From assembly GCF_003334765.1 (NCBI RefSeq), contig NZ_QOWT01000001.1: 64,000 nt of DNA; one strand, written 5' to 3'. Origin of the DNA: Escherichia coli. Its GTDB lineage: Bacteria > Pseudomonadota > Gammaproteobacteria > Enterobacterales > Enterobacteriaceae. The position numbers are program-made. Shown here one piece after another: positions 32,001 through 35,000 of this stretch. Within the stretch, counting starts at the first letter, position 1, and the number at the start of each line of letters is the position of its first letter.

Positions 32001-35000
32001 GTTTGTCTGCGGCGTCTGGGAATGCGCAAATGGAATAACCATTCAGTGGGTTATCGCCGTGGCGAAGCGCCAGAAAAGCCGCCGGGCCGTGGCAAAGGGA
32101 GATAACAAAACGGTCATTTTTGATTGCCCACTGTAAAGCGGCAGCTACGTCCTGGCTTTCAGGTAAACCAATAAGTGCGCCATGACCACCAGGAACAAAG
32201 ATTGCTGCATATTCGCTATCAGCGTTGAGGCTGGCGACAACATCCGCGAGTTTCTTCGGATTGCGGAACAACGATTTATGCTGCTCAAAGAATGGCATTA
32301 CTTTTTCATCTTTGTGCGGCATAGCCCAGTATTCAAACTTGGTCATCAGACCGGAAATGGTCGCCACTTCGAATTCGAAACCTGCAGCATGGAGATGATA
32401 CAACGGCAGCAACGTTTCAATCGGATGGTTACCGGTCGAGAACAGTTTTCCGTTATCGGTCGGCAAATAACGTTCGTCCGCGGCGATCACCAGAATTTTA
32501 TGTTTACCGCGATAAGGTTTTGGATAGTCCACGCCATCAAGATCAGAGACAGGACTGGTATATTGGCTAAGCGAATATTCTGAAGGAAAGAATGCATTAT
32601 CTTCAGCAATATCGACCTGCGGATTTTTACTTGTTTGAACAGTCATAGTGTATTCCTTATTATTGCTTAGTTAGGGTAGTCACTATATTTGCGACTGAGC
32701 TGGTCGCTATTTTTAACCAGGCTGGAAAATTGAGTCAATATATCGAAAGCGGTAGTCGGCGGGTGTAAGTATGTAATGATGATGCTGCACTGGTGTTGAA
32801 TATTATTCACGCCAAATTTTCCTTATTGAGCAACGTCGTCGCAAGTGGCCTCAATGATTTTAGACCATTATCAGAGGTACGGGGCGGCGGGGAGAGATTT
32901 AGTGATGTGGAATATTGTGGTGCTGATGAATATTTATATCCCGGATTGGTGGAGAAAAAGCTTTTTCCATGCACTTTTTTTGCAAAAATTTCTATATGGG
33001 AGGCGTGTTTGTTGCGGATTAATTCATAAAGAAATGTATTTGGAGTGTTGGCTGGAAGAGTAGCTGGTAGAAGATATTGTGCCAGGAGGGGCAGGGTAAG
33101 GTGGTGTATCGATATGCTTTGGCAATTGCGTGTGCCGCAGATGGAGATGAAATGCCAATAAAAAAGCCTGAGTTCGATGAGGGACGAACTCAGGCTAGTG
33201 TTAAGTTTTACAGTAACACGCCGCGGCGCGTCGGCTGATTAGAACTGGTAGACGATACCAACTGCAAACTGGTCATCAGCTGCTGCGCCAGTAATGGCGG
33301 CGTCATCTTTATCCAGCATGTTGAATTTGTATGCAGTATAAACGTTCATGTTCTTATTAAAGTAGTACCAGGTACCAACTTCAATGTAGTTCACACGGTC
33401 AGCGTCAACATATCTATGTCCAGGTACCCCTTTGATATCTTTACCTTTAGAGTACACATAACCTAAGGACGGACGCAGACCAAAGTCGAATTGATACTGA
33501 ACAACCGCTTCAAAGTTCTGGGTTTCATTGATAAGTTGATCACGCATTATTGTATTGCCTTCTCGATCGGCAACACCTGTATCAATAGAACCCGGAGTCA
33601 TATTACGAGTTTCGCCGTACATTACAGCTGCGTAGACATTGTTCGCGTCATACTTTGCAGCCAACGACCACAGTTCAGCATTTGAACCGTTTCCATCGGC
33701 AACTTGATCGTTGGTGCGATCAGATTTGCTATATGCACCAACGATACCAAAACCATTGATGTTATAGTCTACAGACAACGCATAGCCGTCACCATTTTGT
33801 TTCTTAGTGCTACGGTTGCTGTTTTTGCCTTGGTACTGAATCGCAAAATCAAGACCATCAACCAGGCCAAAGAAATCATAGTTACGGTAGGTTGCAACAC
33901 CGTTGGTACGACCATTCATGAAGTTGTCAGCGGAAGCCCAGGAATCGCCACCCCATTCAACTAACATATCGGTATAAGCTGCGGCATCATAAGCAACACC
34001 GTAGTTACGGCCATAGTCAAATGATCCTAACTCGTTATATTTCAAACCGGCGAAGGTTAAACGGGTTTTTTCCTGGTTTTCACCTTCGGGCTTGCTGGCG
34101 TCGAGGTTGTATTCAAACTGACCAAAACCAGTCAGTTCGCTGGTGATTTGGGTTTCACCTTTAACACCGAAACGAGCATAGGAGGTATCTTCGTTTTCGC
34201 TGTTATTATCATCAGTATTTGACCAGATGCGTTCGCCAACCATCTTGCCGTAGAAATCAACTTTATTGCCATCTTTATTATAAATTTCAGCCGCATTTGC
34301 TGCGCCAGCAACTAATAACGCCGGGACCAGCATTGCCAGAACTTTTCTTTTCATTATGTATTCCCTTGTGATTATAATCTTCATGAATATATCAATAAGT
34401 GCCGTTATCCAAAAAAAAGCACATTTGGATACTATTCTATGAAGTTCATTTTATTTTAAGGATTACATGTAACAAATGTATTTAAAAGATTTCAAAATGT
34501 TTCTAATCTATTTAATATAATTCAGAATTATGAATTCTAAATATAAATATTCATGAAAATTATAAATGTATATCAATATGTTATGAGTTGGGTGGAAACA
34601 TAGGGGGTGTCAATGATTGTTGCGCTAAACGGCTGGTGTGATCACGCGCACATTAATGAAGGCATAAAAAAAAGCCGGCATCATGCCGGCCCAAAAAATA
34701 TAAACAAGACGATAAAAGGCTAATAACGGAGGCATCATGACACAGAATAATAAAAAGGTATAATTGTAATCAGTGCTAATATATTGATTGAATGAATTAA
34801 TAAAGCCGATCTCAAAGATAAATAAAATCGCTCAAAACGATTTTTCCTGTATTCACTGCCGTTGCGCAAAAATTATCTATTTGTTCAAAAAATGAGTGAG
34901 TCTTGACTGGCTCATCCAATGTGGAAAAATGTGACTTTTATCACATAATAGTACTAAGTCTGAATTTTCCGGGTTATCTCAAAATGGAATACGGTTCGAC

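What the first reader, a model, noticed from the sequence alone, without database searches (positions are those of the whole stretch)
34664..34790. Orphan promoter-terminator pair predicts a roughly 90-nt sRNA between yedR and yedS
On the minus strand a GC-rich hairpin followed by eight U residues forms a textbook intrinsic terminator, yet no minus-strand CDS lies upstream of it. A TACAAT -10 element sits about 95 nt upstream. From memory the sRNA RseX maps between yedR and yedS, which fits this position and size, but I cannot confirm the sequence. It lies just upstream of an intact porin gene (yedS), which is a natural target class for such an RNA.
Basis: inference. Interest (0 to 1): 0.45.

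Follow-up and report, generated by a model that had tools for sequence, protein, structure and literature searches.

The report
Known E. coli small RNA RseX

Summary
Window 34666..34756 (minus strand) is rseX. It scores 99 bits against Rfam RF01401 (gathering score 50, E 1.9e-12). It is 90/91 identical to the curated K-12 gene b4603 and has the same neighbours (drpB/yedR on one side, yedS on the other). The terminator has a 9-bp stem, a 3-nt loop and eight U. TACAAT lies at -12..-7 from the K-12 5' end, and the -35 is poor. The region is AT-rich (30.5% GC), which fits the published H-NS silencing of rseX. The conserved core (nt 29-50) is predicted to pair across the Shine-Dalgarno regions of the known targets ompA and ompC. 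This copy differs from K-12 at nt 26 (U to C, in the most variable loop) and at -34 in the promoter. The exact allele occurs in 241 of 4877 rseX-carrying complete E. coli genomes. rseX and its synteny extend to other Escherichia species and Citrobacter amalonaticus. Side observation: the only 11/12 sigma-70 consensus match in the 64-kb window lies back-to-back with the rseX promoter, and no TSS is listed there in the one TSS table I could search. Already known, low interest.

The parts
34666..34756 (-). rseX gene, 91 nt (RseX small regulatory RNA)
   Evidence: Rfam RF01401 at 99 bits against a gathering score of 50. It is 90/91 identical to K-12 b4603 2033649..2033739.
34763..34768 (-). -10 hexamer TACAAT (-12..-7 relative to the K-12 5' end)
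   Evidence: Sequence. It is identical in K-12. A sigma-70 promoter supported by 5' RACE is reported for K-12 (Douchin 2006, as cited in PMC8313858).
34786..34792 (-). -35 region, poor match (TCAATC 2/6 at 17-bp spacing; TTCAAT 3/6 at 18 bp). It carries the T-to-C difference from K-12 at 34790 (-34).
   Evidence: Not conserved between species. It overlaps the H-NS motif reported at -42..-32 in K-12 (PMC8313858).
34719..34743 (-). 5' hairpin of the Rfam model (RseX nt 14-38). The variable loop is nt 24-29. The window-specific C at nt 26 is 34731.
   Evidence: Rfam structure line and MFE fold. There is no covariation and there are two pair-breaking changes among 9 sequences. The loop is the most variable part.
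34707..34728 (-). Conserved core / seed (nt 29-50, CGUUAUUAGCCUUUUAUCGUCU)
   Evidence: nt 29-49 are invariant in 9 sequences apart from nt 31 in one, with nt 34-46 fixed by the retrieval pattern. The core is predicted to pair with ompA -21..-7 and ompC -14..+1.
34693..34706 (-). U-rich single-stranded stretch (nt 51-64) just before the terminator; inferred Hfq-binding module together with the U-tail
   Evidence: Sequence and fold. Hfq dependence comes from the literature. Binding here is inferred.
34672..34692 (-). Intrinsic terminator stem-loop (nt 65-85), loop UGA
   Evidence: One compensatory G-C to A-U change in Citrobacter. The terminator loop is reported to mediate fepA repression in K-12 (PMC11979758). 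The hairpin sequence here is identical to K-12.
34666..34673 (-). U8 tail
   Evidence: Sequence.
33239..34354 (-). Context: intact yedS porin gene (371 aa), 311 nt downstream of rseX on the same strand
   Evidence: PGAP 'porin' WP_000824355.1. It is a pseudogene in K-12.
34984..35286 (+). Context: drpB (formerly yedR), divergent neighbour. Mapped K-12 TSSs correspond to window 34936 and 34956.
34737..34764 (+). Plus-strand sigma-70-like site ATGACA-16-TATAAT (11/12), back-to-back with the rseX promoter. Not shown to be used.
   Evidence: the only site of 11/12 or better in the window. No TSS is listed here in the SMRT-Cappable-seq operon table.

Best explanation
This is the rseX gene. A weak sigma-70 promoter (TACAAT -10, poor -35) lies in an AT-rich intergenic region silenced by H-NS. 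It drives a 91-nt transcript that ends at a strong intrinsic terminator. The RNA is an Hfq-dependent trans-acting sRNA. Its conserved single-stranded core (about nt 29-50) pairs across the Shine-Dalgarno/start regions of the ompA and ompC mRNAs, which blocks translation and lowers the mRNAs. Published work adds fimB and ihfB as targets, and fepA repression that depends on the terminator loop. Shown here: identity, boundaries by homology, synteny, the terminator, core conservation and predicted pairing with ompA and ompC. Taken from K-12 literature: the 91-nt transcript, Hfq dependence, target repression and H-NS/StpA silencing. Inferred for this strain: that it behaves the same way, given 90/91 identity and an identical -10, start site, seed and terminator.
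For: Rfam RF01401 full-length hit, 99 bits, E 1.9e-12. The MG1655 record annotates rseX b4603 between drpB and yedS. The window is 90/91 identical, with the single difference at nt 26. The gene order yedA-vsr-dcm-yedJ-drpB / rseX-yedS-hchA is the same. The terminator has 9 pairs plus U8. rseX is present as a single copy in 4877 of 5426 complete E. coli genomes. It is also in E. albertii, E. whittamii, two unnamed Escherichia lineages and Citrobacter amalonaticus, and synteny is kept in Citrobacter. Predicted pairing: nt 37-50 with ompA -21..-7 (about -13 kcal/mol) and nt 29-44 with ompC -14..+1. These rank 3 and 8 of 53 initiation regions, and 1/40 and 2/40 shuffles do as well. Intergenic GC is 0.305 against 0.526 for the window, which fits H-NS silencing. 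Literature: 91 nt, represses OmpA/OmpC (PMC7648144); Hfq-dependent, H-NS/StpA-repressed, 5' RACE-supported sigma-70 promoter, fimB/ihfB targets (PMC8313858); fepA control through the terminator loop (PMC11979758).
Against: There are no expression data for this strain. In wild-type K-12 the RNA is undetectable and appears only without H-NS. The -35 is poor and one match weaker than in K-12 at 17-bp spacing (TCAATC versus TTAATC). The whole-RNA fold is not unusually stable (z = -1.3). The 5' hairpin has no covariation support. Other 5' ends and sizes have been reported: a form of about 75 nt and a 5' end 29 nt downstream (PMC7967276). My pairing energies come from a home-made IntaRNA-like script, not a validated predictor.
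Confidence: 0.95

Rival explanations
1. The element acts mainly in cis as a long leader or attenuator of yedS. Transcripts that start at 34756 normally stop at the terminator, and read-through would express the porin gene 311 nt downstream.
For: rseX and the porin gene are on the same strand and adjacent from E. coli to Citrobacter amalonaticus. In hns mutants 'RseX and surrounding areas' are up-regulated together (figure legend in PMC8313858).
Against: RseX acts in trans from plasmids on ompA, ompC, fimB, ihfB and fepA. The terminator is strong (9-bp stem, U8). Promoter-like sites lie between rseX and yedS at 34541..34514 and 34475..34448. K-12 keeps rseX intact although its yedS is a pseudogene.
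Confidence: 0.04
2. In this strain the locus is a silent relic. The sequence is rseX by descent, but it is never expressed at a level that regulates anything.
For: RseX is not detectable in wild-type K-12 under any tested condition, and no RseX-specific signal was seen in the Salmonella samples tested (PMC1804206). The -35 is poor and not conserved between species. The gene is absent from about 10% of complete E. coli genomes, in one case through an IS1-bounded deletion. It is listed as a variably present sRNA lost several times (PMC3318445).
Against: The core nt 29-49 and the terminator are near-invariant across Escherichia and Citrobacter, while the loop and flanks vary. That indicates purifying selection on the RNA. 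A K-12 deletion mutant showed a slight swarming defect (PMC4606813).
Confidence: 0.08
3. The hairpin is a REP-type repeat or a terminator belonging to a neighbouring gene, and the upstream TACAAT is a chance match.
For: The generic terminator scan is not enriched over shuffles (1 found, 0.9 expected). TACAAT-like hexamers are common in AT-rich DNA.
Against: The hairpin occurs once in the window. The 91-nt sequence occurs once per genome (median 1, maximum 2). The plus strand has no T-run after the hairpin. No gene converges on it. The full-length Rfam match covers far more than the hairpin.
Confidence: 0.01
4. The transcript encodes a small protein (the 37-aa ORF 34738..34625 starts at AUG nt 19 of RseX).
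For: An ATG-initiated ORF is listed mechanically.
Against: The ORF runs through the terminator and its stop codon lies 41 nt beyond the RNA 3' end, so the 91-nt RNA has no in-frame stop. No Shine-Dalgarno precedes it. A 1-nt indel in the U-run shifts the frame in most other species.
Confidence: 0.01

Closest known systems
RseX of E. coli K-12 (b4603; Rfam RF01401)
   Same: The length is 91 nt, with 90/91 identity. The -10, start site, seed, U-rich stretch, terminator and U8 tail are all identical, and so are the flanking genes and their orientation.
   Different: U to C at nt 26 in the 5' hairpin loop gives a CCUCC motif. T to C at -34 lies in the -35/H-NS-motif region. The downstream yedS is intact here and a pseudogene in K-12. 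The exact allele is in 241 genomes against 1623 for the K-12 allele.
MicF (next to ompC) and MicC (next to ompN)
   Same: These are Hfq-dependent sRNAs encoded beside a porin gene that repress a different major porin by pairing at the ribosome-binding site (arrangement discussed in PMC5745476). Here rseX lies beside the porin gene yedS and represses ompC and ompA.
   Different: micF and micC are divergent from their neighbouring porin gene, whereas rseX is co-directional with yedS. There is no sequence or Rfam relationship. Co-regulation of rseX and yedS has not been tested.
RybB and MicA (sigma-E-dependent omp-repressing sRNAs)
   Same: They have overlapping targets (ompC and ompA). RseX was found as a multicopy suppressor of loss of the sigma-E pathway protease RseP (literature cited).
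   Different: PMC1804206 reports that the Salmonella homologues of the other omp-regulating sRNAs are not in the sigma-E regulon and that no RseX signal was detected there. In K-12 RseX is silenced by H-NS.
SdsR and ArrS (terminator-loop-dependent repression of fepA)
   Same: The 3' part of RseX (nt 52-91) represses fepA through its terminator loop, in an Hfq- and RNase E-dependent way (PMC11979758). The terminator here is identical to K-12.
   Different: They are unrelated in sequence. That mechanism is unresolved in the literature and was not examined here.

Membership tests
RseX (Rfam RF01401) | Score at or above the family's gathering threshold over the full covariance model | tested here: met
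   99 bits against 50, model positions 1-94/94, E 1.9e-12.
RseX (Rfam RF01401) | Sequence homology to the experimentally defined K-12 gene b4603 | tested here: met
   90/91 identical; the only difference is nt 26.
RseX (Rfam RF01401) | Genomic position between drpB (yedR) and yedS, same strand as yedS | tested here: met
   Searches show the same gene order and orientation. This is also kept in Citrobacter amalonaticus.
RseX (Rfam RF01401) | Intrinsic terminator with a long U-tail preceded by a U-rich stretch (typical Hfq-binding 3' module) | tested here: met
   9-bp stem, U8 tail, and nt 51-64 UGUUUAUAUUUUUU. Hfq binding itself is not testable here.
RseX (Rfam RF01401) | Seed complementary to the ompA and ompC translation-initiation regions | tested here: met
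   Predicted duplexes cover the Shine-Dalgarno of ompA and the SD/AUG of ompC. They rank 3 and 8 of 53, and 1/40 and 2/40 shuffles do as well. This is computational only.
RseX (Rfam RF01401) | A discrete transcript of about 91 nt from a sigma-70 promoter, repressed by H-NS | not testable with these tools
   No expression data exist for this strain. The -10 and start site are identical to K-12, the region is 30.5% GC, and the K-12 evidence is in PMC8313858.
REP (repetitive extragenic palindrome) element | Many dispersed copies of the palindrome per genome | tested here: not met
   There is one copy in the 64-kb window, and the only other hit has 3 mismatches. The 91-nt query has a median of 1 place per genome in 4877 genomes.
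Bidirectional promoter (Warman et al., divergent TSSs 7-25 bp apart with overlapping -10 elements) | Two mapped divergent transcription start sites 7-25 bp apart | tested here: inconclusive
   Geometry is predicted only. The rseX TSS is at 34756, and the plus-strand 11/12 site would start near 34771, which is 15 bp away with the -10 hexamers sharing 2 bp. The SMRT-Cappable-seq operon table lists no TSS there. That table is cut in storage and comes from cells with H-NS.

The most novel reading that the evidence does not exclude
rseX and yedS may form a co-inherited, H-NS-silenced 'porin swap' module. When silencing is lifted, RseX would shut down the major proteins OmpC and OmpA while the adjacent alternative porin YedS, whose own initiation region escapes RseX pairing, is produced. 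In that case the minority C26 allele (a perfect CCUCC anti-Shine-Dalgarno motif in the loop) could widen or shift the target set. One example is the fliQ start region, predicted at -16.4 kcal/mol for C26 against -13.3 for U26. The evidence is consistent with this but does not show it: linkage is conserved out to Citrobacter, the two genes share an AT-rich island, yedS is not a predicted target, and yedS is intact in this strain.
Probability: 0.15. Interest if true: 0.35.

Novelty: already known. Interest (0 to 1): 0.07.

Why it matters
It matters little as a discovery. RseX was predicted in a computational sRNA screen (Chen et al. 2002, as cited in PMC8313858) and characterised in 2006. It is in Rfam and in the curated K-12 annotation. 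The practical points are modest. First, automated PGAP annotation of this and thousands of other E. coli genomes does not label rseX, so the intergenic region looks empty. Second, this strain pairs rseX with an intact yedS porin gene, unlike K-12, so it would be a better background than K-12 for asking whether the sRNA and the neighbouring porin are co-regulated.

Tried and rejected
- Unrestricted RNAduplex-type folding of full-length RseX against 110-160-nt leaders gave meaningless end-to-end duplexes. I replaced it with short local hybrids plus opening energies.
- yedS as a direct RseX target was rejected on present evidence. The best site is -5.0 kcal/mol inside the coding region, rank 32/53, and 24/40 shuffles do as well.
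- The REP element and bidirectional-terminator ideas were rejected.
- The small-protein idea for the 37-aa ORF was rejected.
- The plus-strand 11/12 site is not the drpB promoter. The mapped drpB TSSs lie at window 34936 and 34956, at the two 9/12 sites.
- The original RseX paper (PubMed 16513633) is not held, so its content is cited only through later papers.
- Look-ups in the Cappable-seq supplements found nothing in either coordinate version. The held files total only 272,000 characters, so the absence says little.
- The supplement list of the Warman preprint could not be fetched.
Ten of its 17 hits were from unrelated phyla with different spacings. Nine of these were tested and gave no Rfam rseX hit, so they are chance matches. 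The tenth, L019, was not tested.
- Covariation analysis was uninformative because the stems hardly vary.

Full report
**Observation**

On the minus strand the window reads TACAAT (34768..34763), then TATACC, and then a U-rich RNA-like stretch starting at 34756. That stretch ends in the hairpin GGGCCGGCA-UGA-UGCCGGCUU (34692..34672), whose last two U begin a run of eight (34673..34666). The terminator scan reports this site as a 9-pair stem with 6 G-C pairs and a 3-nt loop. It is the only such site in 34200..35400. Folding gives the same hairpin, and it is the only element in the centroid structure. No annotated minus-strand gene lies upstream, because drpB, yedJ and dcm are all on the plus strand. 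The simple scans do not show significance on their own. The terminator scan found 1 site against 0.9 expected. The rseX promoter was not called at all, because its best -35 is 2/6 at 17-bp spacing or 3/6 at 18 bp.

**Identity**

A search of the whole window against Rfam 15 gave four hits above gathering score: DsrA, two tRNAs, and rseX (RF01401). The rseX hit is at 34667..34756 on the minus strand, at 99 bits against a gathering score of 50, E 1.9e-12, covering model positions 1-94 of 94. The curated MG1655 record annotates 'small regulatory RNA RseX' (b4603) at 2033649..2033739, between drpB (b1963, formerly yedR) and the yedS pseudogene. Aligned base by base, window 34666..34756 (minus) equals that gene at 90 of 91 positions. 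The surrounding gene order is the same: yedA, vsr, dcm, yedJ, drpB, then rseX, yedS, hchA. Over 50 kb the window differs by only 2 mismatches from E. coli 2017C-4173W12 (NZ_CP030768). In that record PGAP annotates nothing in this intergenic region.

**Published knowledge (K-12)**

- RseX is a 91-nt RNA that down-regulates OmpA and OmpC (PMC7648144).
- It acts in an Hfq-dependent manner, and its sigma-70 promoter is supported by 5' RACE.
- It is undetectable in wild-type cells and appears as a band of about 91 nt, plus a shorter form of about 75 nt, when H-NS is removed, more so without StpA as well. An H-NS motif is reported at -42..-32. It also represses fimB and ihfB (PMC8313858).
- Its 3' part (nt 52-91) represses fepA through the terminator loop, in an Hfq- and RNase E-dependent way, apparently without direct pairing (PMC11979758).
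- Overexpression raises biofilm formation and lowers swarming and curli (PMC4606813).
- It is one of four Hfq-associated sRNAs that are variably present in E. coli and Shigella, through secondary losses (PMC3318445).
- One re-analysis places a 5' end 29 nt downstream of the annotated one (PMC7967276).

**Anatomy and conservation**

The 91-nt sequence is present once per genome in 4877 of 5426 complete E. coli genomes. In one genome that lacks it, an IS1 element sits where rseX, yedS, hchA and hprRS would be. An exact-pattern scan of one genome per species, followed by Rfam scoring, found rseX in two E. coli representatives, E. albertii, E. whittamii, Escherichia sp. E1V33 and sp. MOD1-EC7003 (87-95 bits), and in Citrobacter amalonaticus (71 bits). 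Ten hits from unrelated phyla looked like chance matches, and the nine that were scored gave no rseX hit. In Citrobacter the order yedJ, drpB, then rseX and a YedS-like porin is kept. This distribution is a lower bound, because the scan required exact GTGTCA and TTAGCCTTTTATC.

In the 9-sequence alignment nt 12-20, 22-23 and 29-49 are invariant, apart from nt 31 in one sequence, and so is the terminator core. The hairpin loop nt 24-28, the 5' end and the -35 region vary. Nineteen of the invariant positions were fixed by the retrieval pattern. The Rfam consensus independently shows them as conserved. The stems show almost no variation. The 5' hairpin has no compensatory change and two pair-breaking changes. 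The terminator has one G-C to A-U change. The 5' hairpin is therefore unproven as a structure. The pattern looks like conservation of primary sequence, as expected for a seed.

**Mechanism check**

I wrote an accessibility-aware pairing script that combines local duplex energy with the cost of opening both RNAs. It predicts that RseX nt 37-50 pair with ompA -21..-7, across the Shine-Dalgarno (total about -13 kcal/mol). It predicts that nt 29-44 pair with ompC -14..+1. Against 51 annotated initiation regions from the same strain, ompA and ompC rank 3 and 8 of 53. Only 1 and 2 of 40 dinucleotide-shuffled sRNA bodies do as well. This fits the published model of repression at the ribosome-binding site. 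The intergenic region is 30.5% GC against 52.6% for the window, which is typical of H-NS-bound DNA.

yedS is indeed intact here: 371 aa, annotated 'porin', and a pseudogene in K-12. But its initiation region gives only -5.0 kcal/mol, at a site inside the coding region. It ranks 32 of 53, and 24 of 40 shuffles do as well. No held paper links RseX to yedS as a target. The conserved adjacency is more reminiscent of micF-ompC and micC-ompN, where the sRNA beside one porin gene represses another porin (PMC5745476). Whether rseX and yedS are co-expressed has not been tested.

**What is particular to this copy**

There are two substitutions relative to K-12 within the gene and core promoter. The first is U to C at nt 26 (window 34731), in the most variable loop, which creates CCUCC. 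The second is T to C at -34 (34790), which lowers the 17-bp-spaced -35 from TTAATC to TCAATC. The exact 91-nt allele occurs in 241 genomes and the K-12 allele in 1623. The C26 change slightly strengthens the predicted pairing with Shine-Dalgarno-like sequences. For ompC the value is -10.4 against -8.5 kcal/mol, and for fliQ it is -16.4 against -13.3. Nothing suggests this is more than ordinary polymorphism.

**Side observation**

The plus strand carries ATGACA-16-TATAAT at 34737..34764. It is the only sigma-70 match of 11/12 or better on either strand of the 64-kb window. It lies back-to-back with the rseX promoter. The two -10 hexamers share 2 bp, and the predicted start near 34771 is 15 bp from the rseX start. 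That falls within the 7-25 bp that defines bidirectional promoters, which are enriched in H-NS-silenced DNA (bioRxiv 10.1101/2020.01.31.928960). It is not the known drpB promoter. The drpB-operon TSSs in SMRT-Cappable-seq (2033469 and 2033449) map to window 34936 and 34956, at the two weaker 9/12 sites. No TSS is listed at the strong site. Its -35 is the complement of invariant RseX nt 15-20, so its conservation cannot be separated from that of the RNA.

**Verdict**

The feature is the already known sRNA gene rseX in its canonical context. Interest is low.

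Noticed in passing
window 34737-34764 (+): ATGACA-16-TATAAT is the only sigma-70 consensus match of 11/12 or better on either strand of the 64-kb window. It lies back-to-back with the rseX promoter: the -10 hexamers share 2 bp, and the predicted TSS near 34771 is 15 bp from the rseX TSS. It is not the mapped drpB promoter, and no TSS is listed there in the SMRT-Cappable-seq operon table. It could be an H-NS-silenced bidirectional partner or an RNAP competitor of the rseX promoter.
   Followed up: partly
window 33239-34354 (-): yedS is an intact 371-aa porin gene here (PGAP 'porin' WP_000824355.1), whereas it is a pseudogene in K-12. 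The rseX-porin adjacency is conserved out to Citrobacter amalonaticus (L020).
   Followed up: partly
window 34731 and 34790 (-): This rseX allele differs from K-12 by U26C, which creates CCUCC in the hairpin loop, and by T-to-C at -34 in the -35/H-NS-motif region. The exact 91-nt allele is in 241 of 4877 rseX-carrying genomes, against 1623 for the K-12 allele.
   Followed up: yes
window 45785-45801 (-) fliQ start; 48828-48847 (-) fliL leader: Among 51 local initiation regions, the best predicted RseX pairings were with the fliQ Shine-Dalgarno/AUG (-16.4 kcal/mol with C26, -13.3 with U26) and the fliL leader (-14.8). For both, 0 of 40 shuffles did as well. RseX overexpression lowers swarming but not swimming in K-12 (PMC4606813). 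This is a crude prediction with no correction for multiple testing.
   Followed up: partly
window 34936 and 34956 (+): The two weak (9/12) promoter-like sites at 34903-34930 and 34922-34949 coincide with the drpB-operon TSSs mapped in K-12 (2033469 and 2033449). These lie upstream of the corrected drpB start codon (34984).
   Followed up: yes
window 43093-43179 (+): A DsrA sRNA gene (Rfam RF00014, 102.5 bits) lies in its usual position near dsrB and rcsA.
   Followed up: no
window about 14001-23705, next to tRNA-Asn 23870-23942 (-): A yersiniabactin High Pathogenicity Island (ybtS, ybtX, ybtQ, ybtP, ybtA, irp2) with a tyrosine integrase is inserted at tRNA-Asn. It is absent from K-12 at this site.
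   Followed up: no
window about 56051-59322: A block with an IS200/IS605 transposase plus ybcM, ybcL and emrE lies between fliE and yedF, next to two truncated pseudogenes (an SOS response-associated peptidase and an HTH protein). It looks like a prophage or island remnant.
   Followed up: no
window 40388-42082 (+): dgcQ (a diguanylate cyclase that regulates cellulose biosynthesis) is annotated as a pseudogene with an internal stop in the near-identical strain.
   Followed up: no
L023 (NZ_CP062851) 5103-5900: In an E. coli O9:H10 strain that lacks rseX, an IS1A element replaces rseX, yedS, hchA, hprS and hprR, joining drpB to hiuH. About 10% of complete genomes lack rseX, and the other cases were not examined.
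   Followed up: partly
window 34666-34756 (-): The literature reports other RseX forms: a band of about 75 nt in hns mutants (PMC8313858) and a 5' end 29 nt downstream of the annotated start (PMC7967276). No good -10 precedes nt 30 in the sequence, so processing seems more likely than a second promoter. This is unresolved.
   Followed up: no
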